Positions 3,998-15,506 of a stretch of 29,870 bases of DNA are shown here, one piece after another (position 1 is the stretch's first letter; each line of letters starts with the position of its first letter). The translations under genes were made by a program, and so were the position numbers. This stretch comes from a virus (taxonomy: Duplodnaviria; Heunggongvirae; Uroviricota; Caudoviricetes): positions 1 through 29,870 of IMG/VR virus record IMGVR_UViG_2703718835_000002. One strand, 5' to 3'. The notes under the pieces were generated by a model. The model searched no databases. It was not told where the DNA came from and saw nothing but the letters and a program-made list of their open reading frames with translations.

Positions 3998-4343
3998 TGT
4001 CTGCTCCTGTTGATACGGAAAGGGAAACCGACGCGCCGTTATTGCGCTGCCCGGTAAGCTCAACCACCATGGAGCCGTCAAAATTGCTGCTGATGGTGAT
4101 GGAATCCAGCGTAAGCCGTGGCTCCCAGCGACTCAGCGCCACATAGACCGCAGACATGACCTGCAGGCGTAGCGCCGGGTTCTGCGGCTGGTCAATCAGG
4201 GCGGATAGCAGGGAACCATATTCCCGGCGGGCAATGCGGCTACCCTGCGGTGTCAGCAGAATGTCCCGCACCGACTGGCGCAGATGGTCAATATCAGTAA
4301 TAGCTTTGCCGCTGGTATTGTTCATCCCGCTATAAAGCGTCAT
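3984..4343 (-). CDS. W: Baseplate wedge protein gpW
   Basis: 119 aa; ..DILLTPQGSRIARREYGSLL..IDQPQNPAL.. resembles P2 gpW; start overlaps V stop. Confidence 0.9.
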   Translation of the reverse strand: MTLYSGMNNTSGKAITDIDHLRQSVRDILLTPQGSRIARREYGSLLSALIDQPQNPALRLQVMSAVYVALSRWEPRLTLDSITISSNFDGSMVVELTGQRNNGASVSLSVSTGADNGSD

Positions 4344-4918
4344 ACCGGGCCTCCGGTTGTGTCGCCGCCTTTCAGGACGCCAGTATGCTGATGTGCATCA
4401 ACCACAATTCCGTTAGAACTCATTGCACCGCCGCCCTGGGTAACGCCACCATTGATCACTACTTCGCTGTTAATACGCGTGTGGTCAGCCTCCAGCACAA
4501 ACTCACTGGTTTTCAGGGTGATGTTGTCGGCAGCCTCAATGACCATGGATTTGATGCCCCTGACATACCAGCGCCCGGTGGCTGGTTCGTATTCAAACCA
4601 GCCACCGTCAGGATGTTCTGTCACGCAGGCTTCCGCCGACGTCGACGGTGGCGCGAACTGATTCGAATAGATGGCGGGCAACGCAAAGGCGGTTTCCAGA
4701 TTGCCGCCCAGACTCAGCAGCACCACCTGCTCACCTTCCGATGGTCGCCACCATGTCCGGGCATTCCCGGCACGCAGCGTCAGCCAGCTGATCCAGTTGG
4801 TTTCAAGCTCGCCCGTTTTCACCCGGCAAAGCCAGTTCTCCCGGTCCACTTCGGTGACTACCCCAGTGCGGATCAGGTTGGTGATAAGGCGCATGATTTC
4901 GGTTAGTTGTGCGTTCAT
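4340..4918 (-). CDS. V: Baseplate spike/central protein gpV
   Basis: Start taken at MNAQLTEIMRLI (ATG at 4916-4918), homologous to the P2 V N-terminus; ..RAGNARTWWRPSEGEQV.. and C-terminal ..HTGV..GGDTTGGPV conserved. Confidence 0.85.
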   Translation of the reverse strand: MNAQLTEIMRLITNLIRTGVVTEVDRENWLCRVKTGELETNWISWLTLRAGNARTWWRPSEGEQVVLLSLGGNLETAFALPAIYSNQFAPPSTSAEACVTEHPDGGWFEYEPATGRWYVRGIKSMVIEAADNITLKTSEFVLEADHTRINSEVVINGGVTQGGGAMSSNGIVVDAHQHTGVLKGGDTTGGPV

Positions 4919-4963
4919 AGGGTTAGGTTGCACGGACCTTGAATCTATGGCATCAATACGTCC

Positions 4964-4990
4964 TTGTGTGGTAAATGACACAAATACAAT
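4964..4990 (+). promoter_or_regulatory. Candidate sigma70 promoter for the moron ORF (TTGTGT-N15-TACAAT)
   Basis: -10 TACAAT at 4985-4990, -35-like TTGTGT at 4964-4969; SD AAAGG then ATG at 5014. Confidence 0.35.
4965..4982. promoter_or_regulatory. TGT-N12-ACA dyad (P2 Ogr / 186 B late-activator type) upstream of V
   Basis: TGTgtggtaaatgacACA, centred about 55 nt upstream of the V start codon, the same geometry as the dyad upstream of P. Confidence 0.4.
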
Positions 4991-5013
4991 TCCAATCGAA
5001 GAAAGGTAAAAGA

Positions 5014-5544
5014 ATGAGCCATCCAATTGATTATTACGCTATAGAAGAACACGCAAGAATAATTGAGCAATTATGCTGTTCATCTGAATTTTATTTACAG
5101 CGTATATATTCCACACAGAAAGTATATGATGGTTCTATAGTAACTGAATTTGAAATAGAGGAGTTATCGTACAACGGATGGTTGGAATATACCATTAGCA
5201 ACAATCTTATTAGCCTTTGTACAAAACTACGAATTCTCCAAGACACTAGTGAACATGAGTGGAACCCAGATTACTCACCTGAGAAAGAAGCATTTGAAGA
5301 ACATGAAAATATACTTTTTGTTATAGATGGTCATGTTAAAGGTTCTATACGCGAATGCTGCAACAAAATTATTCACGCATTAAGTTTTGAGTTAACAAAA
5401 AAGACCGGCAAAAATGGAATAAAATATTGGGATGGTTCTATTATTGCTTCTGGGGTTCAAAACAAAAAAAACTGGAAAATTAAAATAGACCTTTTCCCTT
5501 TTTGCCAAAGCATAAAAAGTTATTTAAGTTTATTAAGTGCGTAA
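5014..5544 (+). CDS. Hypothetical protein, AT-rich moron between V and S (176 aa from ATG 5014; ORF track starts at 4975)
   Basis: Opposite strand to the late genes, strongly AT-rich versus flanks, SD AAAGG 7 nt before ATG 5014. No motif recognised. Confidence 0.6.
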   Translation: MSHPIDYYAIEEHARIIEQLCCSSEFYLQRIYSTQKVYDGSIVTEFEIEELSYNGWLEYTISNNLISLCTKLRILQDTSEHEWNPDYSPEKEAFEEHENILFVIDGHVKGSIRECCNKIIHALSFELTKKTGKNGIKYWDGSIIASGVQNKKNWKIKIDLFPFCQSIKSYLSLLSA

Positions 5545-5549
5545 ACATT

Positions 5550-6002
5550 CTAATTTTTCATCAAAAAATACTTTAAAAGTAAATCTCTTACTTCATTTTC
5601 AGTATGTTCATTTAAACCCAGCAATTTTCGGGATGGATACTTAATGACTCCCCCCTTTGGACTGACGCGATCGCGCAGGCCGTAATGATGAACGCGGGCA
5701 ATGCGCTGCACCTTACCTTCAAACTGTACGCTGGCAGAATCCGCGCTGGCGGCAGTTTTCAGGTATTTTGTGGTGCGCAGCTTTGCAAACATCTGACGTT
5801 TGATGCGCCCTTTTTTACTTCGTGCTGTTACCCGTCGCGGTTCATAACTGCTGCCATCTGGATTGCGCTGCATCCTGATATTCTGCTGCTGTGTCCGGCG
5901 CAGTTCCTGCGCCAGCTGGCGCATCATGCGGCTTCTCGTGGCTGGTTCCAGATTCGCCAGCAAGGCACTCAGCCAGTCGTCCACCTTCTGCAGTTCAGCC
6001 AC
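5550..6002 (-). CDS. S: Tail completion protein gpS
   Basis: 150 aa; MAELQKVDDWLSALLANLEPA..QRNPDGS.YEPR.. resembles P2 gpS. Confidence 0.85.
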   Translation of the reverse strand: MAELQKVDDWLSALLANLEPATRSRMMRQLAQELRRTQQQNIRMQRNPDGSSYEPRRVTARSKKGRIKRQMFAKLRTTKYLKTAASADSASVQFEGKVQRIARVHHYGLRDRVSPKGGVIKYPSRKLLGLNEHTENEVRDLLLKYFLMKN

Positions 6003-11441: not shown

Positions 11442-11459
11442 TGTACCGACAACCACACA
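11442..11459. promoter_or_regulatory. TGT-N12-ACA late-activator dyad in the O-P divergent late promoter region
   Basis: TGTaccgacaaccacACA, centred about 55 nt upstream of the P start codon in the 142-bp O/P intergenic region. Confidence 0.45.
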
Positions 11460-11505: not shown

Positions 11506-13272
11506 ATGAACACCACACTGACACCCGCAGATCTCGATCCCCGTCGGCAGGCCATGCTGCTCTACTTTCAGGGATACCGCGTAGCCCGCATTGCTGAAAT
11601 GCTGGGCGAGAAAGTTGCAACCGTTCACAGCTGGAAAAAACGCGACAAGTGGGGTGACTATGGGCCGCTGGATCAGATGCAGCTCACCACCGCCGCACGC
11701 TACTGCCAGCTCATTATGAAGGAGCACAAAGAAGGGAAAGATTTCAAAGAGATTGACCTGCTGGCGCGCCAGTCGGAACGCCACGCGCGGATCGGCAAGT
11801 TTAACAATGGCGGCAACGAAGCCGACTTAAACCCTAACGTTGCCAACCGCAACAAAGGCCCGCGCCGTCAGCCGGAAAAGAATGTTTTCACCGATGAGCA
11901 GATTGAGAAGCTGGAAGAAATCTTCCATTCCTCCATGTTCAACTACCAGCGCCACTGGTGGGAAGCCGGAAAAACCAACCGCATCCGCAACCTGCTGAAA
12001 TCACGCCAGATCGGCGCGACCTTTTACTTTGCCCGTGAAGCCCTGATTGACGCTCTGCTTACCGGACGTAACCAGATTTTCCTTTCCGCCAGCAAGGCAC
12101 AGGCCCACGTCTTTAAGCAGTACATCATCGACTTCGCCAAAGAAGTGGAAGTGGAGCTGAAAGGCGATCCGATGGTGCTTCCCAACGGGGCCACGCTTTA
12201 CTTCCTCGGCACCAATGCCCGCACGGCCCAGAGTTACCACGGCAACCTGTATCTGGATGAATATTTCTGGATACCGAAATTCCAGGAGCTGCGCAAAGTG
12301 GCTTCCGGTATGGCTATTCACAAAAAATGGCGACAAACCTATTTTTCCACGCCATCCAGCCTGACCCACAGTGCTTATCCGTTCTGGTCCGGTGCGCTGT
12401 TCAACCGTGGGCGCAACAAGGCCGACAAGGTGGACATCGACCTGTCCCACAGCAATCTGGCCCCCGGCCTGCTGTGCGCAGACGGGCAATACCGCCAGAT
12501 AGTCACCGTGGAAGATGCGGTGCGCGGCGGCTGTAACCTGTTCGACCTTGACCAGTTGCGCATGGAGTACAGCCCGGACGAATACCAGAACCTGCTGATG
12601 TGCGAGTTTGTGGACGATCTCGCGTCCGTGTTCCCGCTCAGCGAGCTGCAGGCGTGCATGGTGGACAGTTGGGAAGTCTGGACCGACTTTCATGCACTGG
12701 CTCTGCGCCCGTTTGGCTGGCGCGAAGTGTGGATCGGTTATGACCCGGCAAAAGGTACGCAAAACGGCGACAGCGCCGGATGCGTGGTGGTGGCACCGCC
12801 AGCCGTGTCGGGTGGTAAGTTCCGCATTCTTGAGCGTCACCAGTGGCGCGGGATGGACTTCCGCGCCCAGGCTGACGCGATCAAAAAACTGACCGAACAG
12901 TACAACGTGACCTACATCGGCATCGACTCGACCGGCGTCGGTCACGGGGTTTACGAGAACGTGAAAGCGTTTTTTCCAGCCGTCCGGGAGTTTGTCTACA
13001 ACCCCAACGTTAAAAACGCCCTGGTACTCAAAGCCTACGACATTATCAGTCACCGCCGTCTGGAGTTTGACGCCGGGCATACCGACATTGCGCAGTCCTT
13101 TATGGCAATCCGTCGTGCCACCACCGCCAGTGGCAACCGCCCGACCTATGAAGCCAGCCGCAGCGAAGAGGCCAGCCACGCCGATCTGGCCTGGGCAACA
13201 ATGCACGCACTGTTTAACGAACCGCTGCAGGGCGAGTCCGCCAATACCAGCAATATTGTGGAGATTTTTTGA
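11506..13272 (+). CDS. P: Terminase ATPase (large) subunit gpP
   Basis: 588 aa, P2 gpP-like throughout. Confidence 0.95.
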   Translation: MNTTLTPADLDPRRQAMLLYFQGYRVARIAEMLGEKVATVHSWKKRDKWGDYGPLDQMQLTTAARYCQLIMKEHKEGKDFKEIDLLARQSERHARIGKFNNGGNEADLNPNVANRNKGPRRQPEKNVFTDEQIEKLEEIFHSSMFNYQRHWWEAGKTNRIRNLLKSRQIGATFYFAREALIDALLTGRNQIFLSASKAQAHVFKQYIIDFAKEVEVELKGDPMVLPNGATLYFLGTNARTAQSYHGNLYLDEYFWIPKFQELRKVASGMAIHKKWRQTYFSTPSSLTHSAYPFWSGALFNRGRNKADKVDIDLSHSNLAPGLLCADGQYRQIVTVEDAVRGGCNLFDLDQLRMEYSPDEYQNLLMCEFVDDLASVFPLSELQACMVDSWEVWTDFHALALRPFGWREVWIGYDPAKGTQNGDSAGCVVVAPPAVSGGKFRILERHQWRGMDFRAQADAIKKLTEQYNVTYIGIDSTGVGHGVYENVKAFFPAVREFVYNPNVKNALVLKAYDIISHRRLEFDAGHTDIAQSFMAIRRATTASGNRPTYEASRSEEASHADLAWATMHALFNEPLQGESANTSNIVEIF

Positions 13273-14333: not shown

Positions 14334-14696
14334 ATGGGATGGATCGGCGTTGATCTGGATGGCACGCTGGCGGTGTACCCGCCAGAGAGCGGGGCGCTAA
14401 TAGGTGATGCCATTCCCGGCATGGCGGAAAGGGTCCGCAAATGGCACAAGGATGATATTGAAGTACGAATTTTTACCGTCCGGGCTGGTTCGCGTGCCGG
14501 AGTGAAGCAAGTTAAAGCCTGGTTGAAAGCCAATGAACTGCCGGACCTGATGGTGACGAACGTTAAAGACAGCGGCATGGTGGAATTATGGGATGACAGA
14601 GCGATACGTGTTATCCGTAATACCGGTTCAGTATGCGCCGGTTGCAACGGCACATCGCAGTTCCACCACCATTCAGGAGATTTCACCAACTGCTGA
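14334..14696 (+). CDS. Hypothetical 120-aa protein with HAD-like motif I (VDLDGTL), coupled to Q
   Basis: ATG 3 nt after the Q stop, SD GGGGGT; N-terminal GWIGVDLDGTLA resembles the DxDGT phosphatase motif I, but the protein is short for a full HAD fold. Confidence 0.6.
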   Translation: MGWIGVDLDGTLAVYPPESGALIGDAIPGMAERVRKWHKDDIEVRIFTVRAGSRAGVKQVKAWLKANELPDLMVTNVKDSGMVELWDDRAIRVIRNTGSVCAGCNGTSQFHHHSGDFTNC

Positions 14697-15073: not shown

Positions 15074-15307
15074 TTAATGCAGCCAGCTGTCGTCTTCCCA
15101 CACCTTCTGCATAATTTTCATCACTTGCTTCCTTTCTTCGTCCAGTTGCAGTCCGGTCAGTTCCACACCGTTAGAGCTACCTTTGCGGATACGAATTACC
15201 GTTTTGGGATACAGGGGGCGCAGATTACGGTAAAGCTCGGATTCAAGGGCGTCCAGGGTAGACTGGCTAATCTTCTGCTCTTTATCGATCATTATTTCAA
15301 TGCGCAT
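15074..15307 (-). CDS. DinI-family protein (SOS-inducible; 186 Tum-like position)
   Basis: Start taken at MRIEIMIDKEQ with SD GAGGTGA; ..LDALESELYRNL...VIRIRKGSSNGVELTG...KQVMKIMQKVWEDDSW is DinI-like. Confidence 0.8.
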   Translation of the reverse strand: MRIEIMIDKEQKISQSTLDALESELYRNLRPLYPKTVIRIRKGSSNGVELTGLQLDEERKQVMKIMQKVWEDDSWLH

Positions 15308-15317
15308 AAAAGTCACC

Positions 15318-15506
15318 TCAGCTGATGACATCCATTGAGCGGTTGTATTCGTGGCTTCTGATTTTTGCCATGAGTTCATCAGTCAATTCAGAAACCCACT
15401 GCAGAGCCAGTCCCTTCTCTTCATCACTACACTCACTGGCCGCTACAAGCTTAAGAAAAAAATCAATGCGCTGGAGCTTCAAAGACTCCAAAAAATAGTC
15501 CTGCAT
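15318..15506 (-). CDS. Hypothetical 62-aa protein, first gene of the LexA-controlled operon
   Basis: Strong SD AGGAGG 5 nt before ATG; directly downstream of the LexA box. Confidence 0.55.
   Translation of the reverse strand: MQDYFLESLKLQRIDFFLKLVAASECSDEEKGLALQWVSELTDELMAKIRSHEYNRSMDVIS

What the first reader, a model, noticed from the sequence alone, without database searches (positions are those of the whole stretch)
4964..5544. AT-rich moron with its own promoter inserted between V and S, opposite to the late operon
A 176-aa ORF (ATG 5014, SD AAAGG) lies on the strand opposite to all flanking tail genes. It is markedly AT-rich and preceded by a plausible sigma70 promoter (TTGTGT-N15-TACAAT) that overlaps the late-activator dyad upstream of V. 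The AT-rich tract continues into the last 25 or so codons of S (5550-5640), suggesting the insertion replaced the original S 3' end. The S-V junction is a known variable slot in the P2 family (P2 orf30, from memory). The protein has paired Cys motifs (LCCSSEF, RECCNK) but no domain I can name. Morons at this site are candidates for lysogenic-conversion or anti-phage functions.
Basis: partly seen in the sequence, partly recalled or inferred. Interest (0 to 1): 0.6.

Follow-up and report, generated by a model that had tools for sequence, protein, structure and literature searches.

The report
Prophage accessory gene cassette, likely anti-phage
A P2-like prophage carries a foreign, AT-rich, single-gene cassette between two tail genes; it encodes a conserved protein of an unnamed family that is transcribed in lysogens and sits in a slot where sister phages carry abortive-infection genes, so it is a reasonable but untested candidate for a new phage-defence gene.

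Summary
A 176-aa ORF (5014-5544, +) lies between gpV (4340-4918, -) and gpS (5550-6002, -). Its GC is 0.33 against 0.57 in the flanks.

Near-identical phages have V and S only 65-68 bp apart. The foreign segment is about 730 bp (4931-5660). It also replaces the last 36 codons of S and the whole region upstream of V, while keeping the TGT-N12-ACA late-activator dyad.

The gene is under purifying selection (dN/dS about 0.1). It occupies the same slot in Salmonella and Enterobacter prophages. More distant relatives sit in a Cellvibrio integron cassette and in other mobile islands.

Published LF82 RNA-seq shows the orthologue at least 6-fold above V and S in DMEM and early macrophage samples, but near background in stationary LB.

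Sister phages fill this slot with other single, AT-rich, antisense genes, including an AIPR/AbiU-like protein and PADLOC candidate PDC-S59.

Verdict: a genuine moron in a known variable slot, and a candidate defence gene. The mechanism is inferred.

The parts
4340..4918 (-). gpV baseplate spike, first gene of the late V operon
   Evidence: PF04717 E=7.6e-18 plus the Apex motif. The 192-aa start at 4918 matches the annotation in Cartapus, 500465-1 and KP12.
4931..5660 (.). Foreign AT-rich cassette: V upstream region, cargo gene and the 3' end of S
   Evidence: The alignment with empty-site phages breaks at 4930 and resumes at 5660. GC is 0.27-0.37 here against 0.55-0.65 in the flanks. The same segment is in 22 of 5426 complete E. 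coli genomes at 98.9-99.6% identity.
4965..4982 (.). TGT-N12-ACA dyad, the binding-site consensus of Ogr-type late activators (PV)
   Evidence: Exact match. A dyad of this form is present in all seven cassette or empty-site variants. It ends 46 nt (47 in one) before the V ATG even though the spacer sequence differs. The consensus is given in PMC3931495.
4964..4990 (+). Candidate sigma-70 promoter of the cargo gene (TTGTGT-15-TACAAT), overlapping the dyad
   Evidence: It is the only site with at least 8 of 12 matches upstream of the ORF when spacers of 15-19 are allowed. The standard scan did not report it. Transcription of the orthologue in LF82 lysogens shows that some promoter exists. This assignment is inferred.
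5002..5007 (+). Shine-Dalgarno-like AAAGGT
   Evidence: Sequence. A purine-rich GGA/AGG element lies at the same place in the Salmonella and Enterobacter orthologues.
5014..5544 (+). Cargo gene: 176-aa protein of an unannotated family (PHROG 18838); motif SIRECCNKIIHA at residues 111-122
   Evidence: PHROG hit E=2.5e-124, function unknown. No Pfam, PADLOC or NCBIfam hit. dN/dS is 0.097 against the Salmonella orthologue. AlphaFold pLDDT 90.6.
5550..5660 (-). Replaced C-terminal 36 codons (plus stop) of gpS, a variant that travels with this cargo
   Evidence: S is identical to empty-site phages up to residue 114 and then diverges. The same 'IKYPxRKLLG' tail type accompanies the cargo in Salmonella and Enterobacter. 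GC 0.315.
5550..6002 (-). gpS tail completion protein, last gene of the late O operon
   Evidence: PF05069 E=1e-41. Operon structure ONMLKRS / VWJIHG from PMC3931495.

Best explanation
Window 4931-5660 is an accessory ('moron') cassette in the inter-operon gap between the last gene of the late O operon (S) and the first gene of the late V operon (V) of a P2-like prophage. It arrived by recombination within S (codon 114/115) and next to the V start. It brought its own S tail, its own V upstream region with the late-activator dyad, and one gene.

That gene is transcribed against the late operons. Its promoter can only lie on or beside the dyad, and it is active in the lysogen.

My best guess for function is a single-gene, prophage-encoded anti-phage (abortive-infection type) protein. 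It would be a cytoplasmic helical-bundle protein with R113, N117 and H121 on one face of a short helix, backed by R73/D77. This arrangement resembles the catalytic helix of divergent HEPN RNases such as DUF4145/RAZR. The protein would stay inactive until a phage cue triggers RNA cleavage and growth arrest.

During the prophage's own lytic cycle, two things would shut the gene off: activator binding at the overlapping dyad, and antisense late transcription running from S.

Shown: cassette anatomy, purifying selection, mobility between elements, transcription in lysogens, and defence-type genes in the same slot.
Inferred: defence role, RNase chemistry, trigger, and promoter/dyad interplay.

Layered confidence: accessory moron cassette about 0.9; defence role about 0.5; HEPN-like RNase mechanism about 0.3.
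For: Cassette:
- Empty-site relatives and break points.
- GC contrast.
- In 79 IMG/VR loci the slot is empty in 60, holds this gene in 10 and holds five other cargos in 9. Every cargo is a single gene, GC 0.32-0.35, antisense to S and V.
- Two of those cargos are defence-type: AIPR (PF10592, E=1.6e-25) with AbiU (E=1.7e-24), and PADLOC candidate PDC-S59 (E=1.9e-197).

Real, selected gene:
- dN/dS 0.097 with dS 1.5 against Salmonella.
- Same slot and orientation in Salmonella (75% identity) and Enterobacter (60%).

Self-contained mobile module:
- Cellvibrio homologue flanked by 95%-identical attC-like repeats, in an array next to an integrase.
- Aeromonas copy between an integrase island and a filamentous prophage.
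- Stutzerimonas copy two genes from a TIR protein.
- Another copy two genes from a Ymh (HEPN-family) gene.

Expression of LF82_787, log2(fpkm+5):
- 5.1-6.0 in DMEM.
- 5.1-5.3 in macrophages at the early time point, 4.4-4.6 at the later one.
- V 2.3-4.3 and S 2.3-3.6 across all samples.

Structure and motif:
- pLDDT 90.6, pTM 0.85.
- Conservation across 135 relatives: R73 99%, D77 89%, R113 95%, N117 99%, K118 97%, H121 99%.
- The motif ends a helix that precedes the last helix, which is where HEPN places its motif.
- RAZR's DUF4145 catalytic pair R146/H154 has the same i/i+8 spacing.
- The LF82 DUF4145 family shows R-x3-D followed by K-x3-N-x3-H.
Against: - No defence phenotype has been tested for this family.
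- No hit to any PADLOC v2, Pfam or NCBIfam model for any of 135 members beyond noise.
- hhalign against a 57-sequence ZnF-DUF4145 alignment gives probability 0.2-0.6%.
- Foldseek against PDB and BFVD finds nothing.
- R-x7-H lies outside the canonical HEPN Rx4-6H spacing.
- Expression is near background in stationary LB, and the LF82 authors did not call the gene a moron.
- The proposed promoter is weak, and no site of at least 8 of 12 matches is found in the Salmonella orthologue.
- Three of the five alternative cargos of the slot have no known function.
Confidence: 0.45

Rival explanations
1. The protein is a stress-response or addiction-type toxin (a dormancy-inducing RNase), as has been proposed for integron-borne HEPN cassettes. 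It would benefit the element or host in some conditions with no role against phages.
For: A distant homologue is an integron cassette. PMC3710099 proposes dormancy RNase roles for integron HEPN proteins. Expression depends on conditions: higher in DMEM and macrophages than in stationary LB.
Against: No antitoxin-like partner gene fits in the cassette, since the ORF fills 5014-5544 of a 730-bp insert. The neighbours in the P2 slot are Abi-type genes. Integron cassettes are themselves reported to be rich in anti-phage genes (bioRxiv 10.1101/2024.07.02.601686).
Confidence: 0.15
2. The protein is a non-catalytic helical-bundle protein, for example an inhibitor, decoy or adaptor used in competition between mobile elements (counter-defence, anti-satellite or superinfection exclusion). 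The conserved R/N/K/H face would then be a binding surface.
For: The fold matches are generic bundles at the same Z as the HEPN hits. There is no profile-level link to any nuclease family. The family is carried by phages, a filamentous-phage island and an AlpA-linked island.
Against: Polar residues conserved at 95-99% at i, i+4, i+5 and i+8 across 135 sequences sharing about 18-40% identity, together with a second conserved R-x3-D, are more typical of an active site than of a binding surface that co-evolves with a partner.
Confidence: 0.2
3. The ORF is a spurious or decaying reading frame in AT-rich junk DNA, and the RNA-seq signal is pervasive transcription of AT-rich foreign DNA.
For: AT-rich DNA produces promoter-like sites, and one is predicted on the - strand inside the ORF. 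Expression is modest.
Against: dN/dS is about 0.1 at saturating dS. Full-length homologues are found in 465 clusters at 50% identity. The AlphaFold model is confident. The ORF is intact at 98.9-99.6% identity in 22 complete E. coli genomes.
Confidence: 0.01

Closest known systems
P2 orf30 position (S-V variable region of P2-like phages)
   Same: Same genomic slot between gpS and gpV. The literature lists it, with the TO-region and Z/fun, as one of three places where P2-like phages carry horizontally acquired genes (PMC3091744). Phage R18C has a different 741-bp ORF there (PMC6823313).
   Different: The cargo is a different gene. I did not compare the P2 orf30 sequence itself. Here the swapped unit also includes the S C-terminus and the whole PV upstream region.
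RAZR / PD-T7-4 (zinc-finger plus DUF4145 divergent HEPN RNase; PMC13017515)
   Different: There is no zinc finger here. There is no Pfam PF13643 hit, and hhalign probability is below 1%. This protein has a three- to four-stranded sheet inserted before the last helix. No activity data exist.
Integron-cassette HEPN (PDB 3jrt) and minimal HEPN toxins (7ae2, 5yep, 1jog)
AIPR/AbiU-like and PDC-S59 cargos in the same S-V slot of sister phages
   Same: Same slot, same antisense orientation, same AT-richness, single-gene layout, and each has its own S tail and dyad-bearing V upstream region.
   Different: The protein families are unrelated. The association is by position only.

Membership tests
Moron (prophage accessory gene unit) | Lies between genes that are adjacent in related phages | tested here: met
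   V and S are 65-68 bp apart in 60 of 79 related loci and in phages 500465-1 and KP12.
Moron (prophage accessory gene unit) | Base composition differs from the surrounding phage genome | tested here: met
   GC 0.326 against 0.57.
Moron (prophage accessory gene unit) | Transcribed in the lysogen independently of the silent late genes | tested here: met
   LF82_787 is at least 6-fold above V and S in DMEM and early macrophage samples. It is near background in stationary LB (PMC9928086 S1 Table). The data come from an orthologous prophage (cassette DNA 97-99% identical), not from this strain.
Moron (prophage accessory gene unit) | Own promoter and own terminator | tested here: inconclusive
   Only a weak site, 8 of 12 matches with a 15-nt spacer. 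No terminator-like site was found, and the stop codons of the ORF and S are 5 bp apart.
HEPN superfamily | Four-helix up-down bundle with the motif at the end of helix 3 | tested here: inconclusive
HEPN superfamily | Conserved Rx4-6H motif | tested here: not met
   The spacing is R113-x7-H121. The same non-canonical spacing occurs in RAZR's DUF4145 HEPN domain.
HEPN superfamily | Metal-independent RNase activity; dimer with a composite active site | not testable with these tools
   Needs biochemistry or a multimer prediction.
DUF4145 (PF13643) | Significant match to the family profile | tested here: not met
   No PF13643 hit for any of 135 members at E<=1. hhalign against 57 ZnF-DUF4145 proteins gives probability 0.2-0.6%.
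DUF4145 (PF13643) | [RK]-x3-N-x3-H catalytic helix preceded by a conserved R-x3-D helix | tested here: met
   A6: R73 99%, D77 89%, R113 95%, N117 99%, H121 99%. A7: R130, D134, K181, N185 and H189 all 100%. This is motif-level resemblance only.
Known anti-phage defence systems (PADLOC-DB v2.0.0) | Match to a curated defence protein model | tested here: not met
   No hit for the window protein at E<=10. Among 135 relatives there are only single-member noise hits.
P2-like S-V slot cargo cassettes | Single AT-rich gene antisense to S and V, with its own S C-terminus and a dyad-bearing V upstream region | tested here: met
   All six cassette types share this layout.

The most novel reading that the evidence does not exclude
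The family is an unrecognised branch of DUF4145-like HEPN RNases that works as a one-protein abortive-infection system. The S-V gap of P2-like phages would then be a little-explored defence hotspot. Its cassettes carry their own late-promoter operator, so that the prophage's late activator and antisense late transcription switch the defence off when the prophage itself goes lytic.
Probability: 0.2. Interest if true: 0.6.

Novelty: new member of a known kind. Interest (0 to 1): 0.45.

Why it matters
P2-like prophages are a much-mined source of defence systems. The mining I found in the papers I read concentrated on the old/tin and Z/fun loci.

This finding shows that the S-V gap behaves as a cassette slot with at least six alternative single-gene cargos. 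It also flags one cargo family that escapes every profile library tried (465 clusters at 50% identity, no Pfam, NCBIfam or PADLOC model).

If the gene protects against phages, it adds a compact 176-aa system. It also gives a motif-defined entry point (R113/N117/H121) for mechanism studies. Strain LF82 is a ready-made lysogen in which to test it.

If it does not protect, the result still documents how tail-gene ends and late-promoter regions are swapped together with cargo.

Tried and rejected
- Pfam, PADLOC, NCBIfam and PDB sequence searches with the protein and with 135 relatives gave only noise.
- Foldseek against PDB and BFVD gave nothing below E=0.09. The afdb50 library was unavailable.
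- hhalign against a DUF4145 alignment built from the LF82 prophage protein, both full length and three sub-regions, gave probability below 1%. I therefore do not file the protein as DUF4145.
- Metal-binding Cys pairs are rejected because the cysteines are not conserved.
- The upstream ATG at 4975 (189 aa, as annotated in LF82 and in some PHROG members) is rejected because homologues begin at MSHP.
- The count of TGT-N12-ACA sites in the window is not above chance: 4 found, 8.1 expected. The case for the dyad rests on its conserved position, not on the count.
- I looked for a link to the Vibrio cholerae integron defence cassette 'Esos' (HEPN-like). The genome scan found relatives in only six species representatives, none of them V. 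cholerae.
- No paper mentions WP_000019234.

Full report
**1. The observation**

- The + strand ORF 5014-5544 (176 aa) is present. An AAAGGT element lies 6 nt upstream of the ATG.
- The flanking - strand genes are gpV (4340-4918; PF04717 plus the Apex motif) and gpS (5550-6002; PF05069).
- GC falls from 0.55-0.65 in the flanks to 0.27-0.37 between about 4900 and 5700.
- The ORF has GC 0.326 and GC3 0.261. V has 0.573 and the conserved part of S has 0.567.
- The longer 189-aa frame from the ATG at 4975 is not the gene, because all close homologues start MSHP... at the 5014 position.

**2. It is a foreign cassette, and its limits are precise**

- Phage Cartapus (the LF82 prophage) has the same segment. 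The 1.8-kb region around it is 97% identical.
- Phages 500465-1, KP12 and many Klebsiella phages have V and S separated by only 68 bp.
- In the alignment, homology stops 12 nt upstream of the V start (window 4930) and resumes at 5660.
- At protein level S is identical to the empty-site phages up to residue 114. It then switches to a divergent, AT-rich tail of 36 codons.
- The segment 4931-5660 occurs in 22 of 5426 complete E. coli genomes, always once, always chromosomal, at 98.9-99.6% identity.

**3. The slot is a cassette hotspot**

I fetched 80 IMG/VR loci encoding close relatives of gpS and measured the S-V gap in the 79 that held both genes.

| Gap state | Loci |
|---|---|
| Empty (65 bp) | 60 |
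| This gene (634 bp) | 10 |
| Other inserts (745, 797, 866, 1417 or 1903 bp) | 9 |

- Every insert is a single ORF with GC 0.32-0.35 on the strand opposite to S and V.
- The 566-aa cargo matches Pfam AIPR (E=1.6e-25) and PADLOC AbiU (E=1.7e-24).
- The 442-aa cargo matches PADLOC candidate PDC-S59 (E=1.9e-197).
- The other three cargos are of unknown function: a DUF6216 protein and two different 253-aa proteins.
- Each cassette type brings its own version of the S C-terminus and its own sequence upstream of V.
- All of them keep a TGT-N12-ACA dyad that ends 46 nt (47 in one) before the V ATG.
- TGT-N12-ACA is the consensus of the four Ogr-dependent late promoters of P2, whose operons are ONMLKRS and VWJIHG (PMC3931495). 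The slot is therefore the gap between two late operons.
- The literature already lists the orf30 position as one of three regions where P2-like phages carry acquired genes (PMC3091744, PMC6823313).
- The hotspot studies I read concentrate on old/tin, Z/fun and an att-proximal locus. One mentions a hotspot 'within the tail genes' without detail.

**4. The gene is real, selected and mobile**

- A search of 5.8 billion proteins finds 16 relatives with the single sequence and 44 with a profile. All are 104-195 aa and none has a Pfam domain.
- An exhaustive profile search of 1.84 billion cluster representatives finds 465 relatives at E<=0.001. The 150 listed are mostly stand-alone proteins of about 170-210 aa.
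- Salmonella (75% identity) and Enterobacter (60%) orthologues sit in the same S-V slot in the same orientation.
- Against Salmonella, dN/dS is 0.097 with dS 1.5. That dS is similar to the backbone (V 1.0, S 1.5).
- Against an empty-site E. coli phage the window's backbone has dS of only 0.16-0.22.
- The S tail type 'IKYPxRKLLG' accompanies this cargo in all three genera.
- The simplest reading is that the cassette is old in some P2-like lineages and was recombined recently into this E. coli/Klebsiella-type backbone.

More distant homologues occur in other mobile or variable contexts:

- A Cellvibrio copy is an integron-type cassette. It is flanked by 95%-identical attC-like repeats in an array of at least 14 such repeats next to a tyrosine recombinase.
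- An Aeromonas copy lies between an integrase island and a Zot/RstB filamentous prophage.
- A Stutzerimonas copy is two genes from a TIR protein.
- One metagenomic copy is two genes from a Ymh (HEPN-family) gene, and another is near AlpA.
- No copy has a conserved partner gene, so the protein works alone.

**5. Expression**

PMC9928086 re-analysed RNA-seq of LF82, and its S1 Table lists the orthologue as LF82_787/CARTA_14. Values are log2(fpkm+5), two replicates each.

| Gene | LB stationary | DMEM, B1 | DMEM, B6 | Macrophage, MB1 | Macrophage, MB6 |
|---|---|---|---|---|---|
| LF82_787 (this gene) | 3.51 / 2.71 | 5.06 / 5.16 | 5.89 / 5.97 | 5.11 / 5.28 | 4.57 / 4.38 |
| V | 2.83 / 2.70 | 2.46 / 2.37 | 2.75 / 3.05 | 3.04 / 2.32 | 4.34 / 4.05 |
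| S | 2.32 / 3.14 | 2.37 / 2.53 | 3.28 / 3.07 | 3.19 / 2.58 | 3.19 / 3.58 |

- A value of 2.32 means zero. The repressor CI is about 8-9 outside LB.
- In fpkm the gene is roughly 28-58 in DMEM and 30-34 at the early macrophage point. V and S are about 0-5 in those samples, which is a ratio of at least 6-fold.
- At the later macrophage point the gene (about 16-19) is close to V (about 12-15).
- In stationary LB the gene is near background. That is why the authors, using a 5-fold cut-off in LB, did not list it as a moron.
- The gene is therefore transcribed on its own in a lysogen, in a condition-dependent way.
- Caveat: I rely on the authors' gene-level counts. I assume they are strand-specific, because their figures show separate strands.

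**6. Promoter and terminator**

- Only 31 nt separate the dyad from the ATG, so any promoter must overlap the dyad or the 46-nt V spacer.
- TTGTGT-15-TACAAT (4964-4990) is the only site with at least 8 of 12 matches. The standard 16-18 nt scan finds nothing on the + strand.
- The Enterobacter orthologue has TGGTACAAT, an extended -10 type, overlapping the dyad. The Salmonella orthologue has no site of at least 8 of 12 matches.
- The exact promoter is therefore unproven.
- No terminator is predicted, and the two convergent stop codons are 5 bp apart.
- I infer that late transcripts from S run antisense across the gene, and that activator binding at the dyad would compete with the cargo promoter. 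Neither was tested.

**7. The protein**

- The AlphaFold model is confident: pLDDT 90.6, pTM 0.85.
- It has helices at 7-21, 24-34, 45-78, 89-95 and 112-120. A sheet follows (strands 101-105, 124-131, 137-149, 152-159), then helix 160-175.
- Foldseek finds nothing in PDB or BFVD.
- Six of those matches are HEPN proteins: 3jrt (7.2), 7ae2 (7.0), 5yep (6.8), 1jog (6.6), 1ylm (6.0) and 1wwp (5.7). PMC3710099 classifies 3jrt, 1jog, 1ylm and 1wwp as HEPN.
- In 135 relatives sharing mostly 18-40% identity, the best-conserved residues are R73 (99%), D77 (89%), R113 (95%), E114 (81%), C116 (83%), N117 (99%), K118 (97%), H121 (99%) and A122 (88%).
- 176 of 188 sequences contain R-x3-N-x3-H.
- R113, N117 and H121 are spaced i, i+4, i+8, so they share one face of helix 112-120. 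The histidine sits at the helix end, before the connection to the last helix. That is where HEPN domains carry their motif.
- Canonical HEPN has Rx4-6H, so the spacing here is not canonical.
- By chance the LF82 prophage carries a ZnF-DUF4145 gene in its main hotspot. Its family shows invariant R130-x3-D134 and K181-x3-N185-x3-H189. That is the same order of motifs as here.
- Against this, hhalign between the two families gives probability 0.2-0.6%. No Pfam, NCBIfam or PADLOC model is hit.
- I therefore say the protein may work like a divergent HEPN RNase. I do not file it as a member of HEPN or DUF4145.

**8. Conclusion**

- This is a genuine accessory cassette in a known variable slot of a P2-like prophage. 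It carries one conserved, independently transcribed gene of an unannotated family.
- The best-supported function is prophage-encoded anti-phage defence of the abortive-infection type. The grounds are position, mobility and a nuclease-like conserved face.
- The defence role (about 0.5) and the RNase mechanism (about 0.3) are inferences. A plaque assay and three point mutants would settle them.

Noticed in passing
window 4919-4982; L012, L024, L036, L055, L057, L076, L090 (region upstream of V): The TGT-N12-ACA dyad ends exactly 46 nt (47 in L090) before the V ATG in seven variants whose spacer sequences are otherwise unrelated. No Shine-Dalgarno is visible upstream of V. From memory, P2 late dyads are centred near -55; if so, the V mRNA would have almost no leader.
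   Followed up: partly
L057 4015-5715 (-), L055 3994-5322 (-), L036 3952-4647 (-), L076 3963-4724 (-), L090 3944-4705 (-): These are the alternative cargos of the same S-V slot in sister phages: an AIPR/AbiU-like 566-aa protein, PADLOC candidate PDC-S59 (442 aa), a DUF6216 protein (231 aa) and two unrelated 253-aa proteins without a significant family match. All are AT-rich and antisense to S and V.
   Followed up: partly
L092 23009-23707 (-) (E. coli LF82, prophage Cartapus): The main hotspot next to the portal gene holds a zinc-ribbon plus DUF4145 protein, the RAZR/PD-T7-4 type of architecture. In the LF82 data (LF82_788) it rises from about 4.7 in LB to about 9.5 in macrophages. The window's prophage lacks it. 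At the matching place the window has a 120-aa ORF with a DxDxT-like start (14334-14696, +, no Pfam hit) and a DinI gene (15074-15379, -).
   Followed up: partly
L094 4890-16570 (Cellvibrio sp. pealriver): A chromosomal integron-like array: a tyrosine recombinase followed by at least 14 attC-like repeats of 110-138 nt separating small ORFs. One of these ORFs is a homologue of the window protein.
   Followed up: partly
window 11442-11459: A second TGT-N12-ACA dyad lies just upstream of the terminase ATPase gene (ORF 11506-13272, +). By synteny with LF82 this is the gap between the divergent O and P late operons. It is probably the shared PO/PP activator site.
   Followed up: no
L009 6554-8546 (Stutzerimonas stutzeri): A homologue lies two genes downstream of a TIR-domain protein, which follows a metallo-beta-lactamase-fold gene with an Apyc1-like Pfam hit. 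This may be a small defence or counter-defence island.
   Followed up: no
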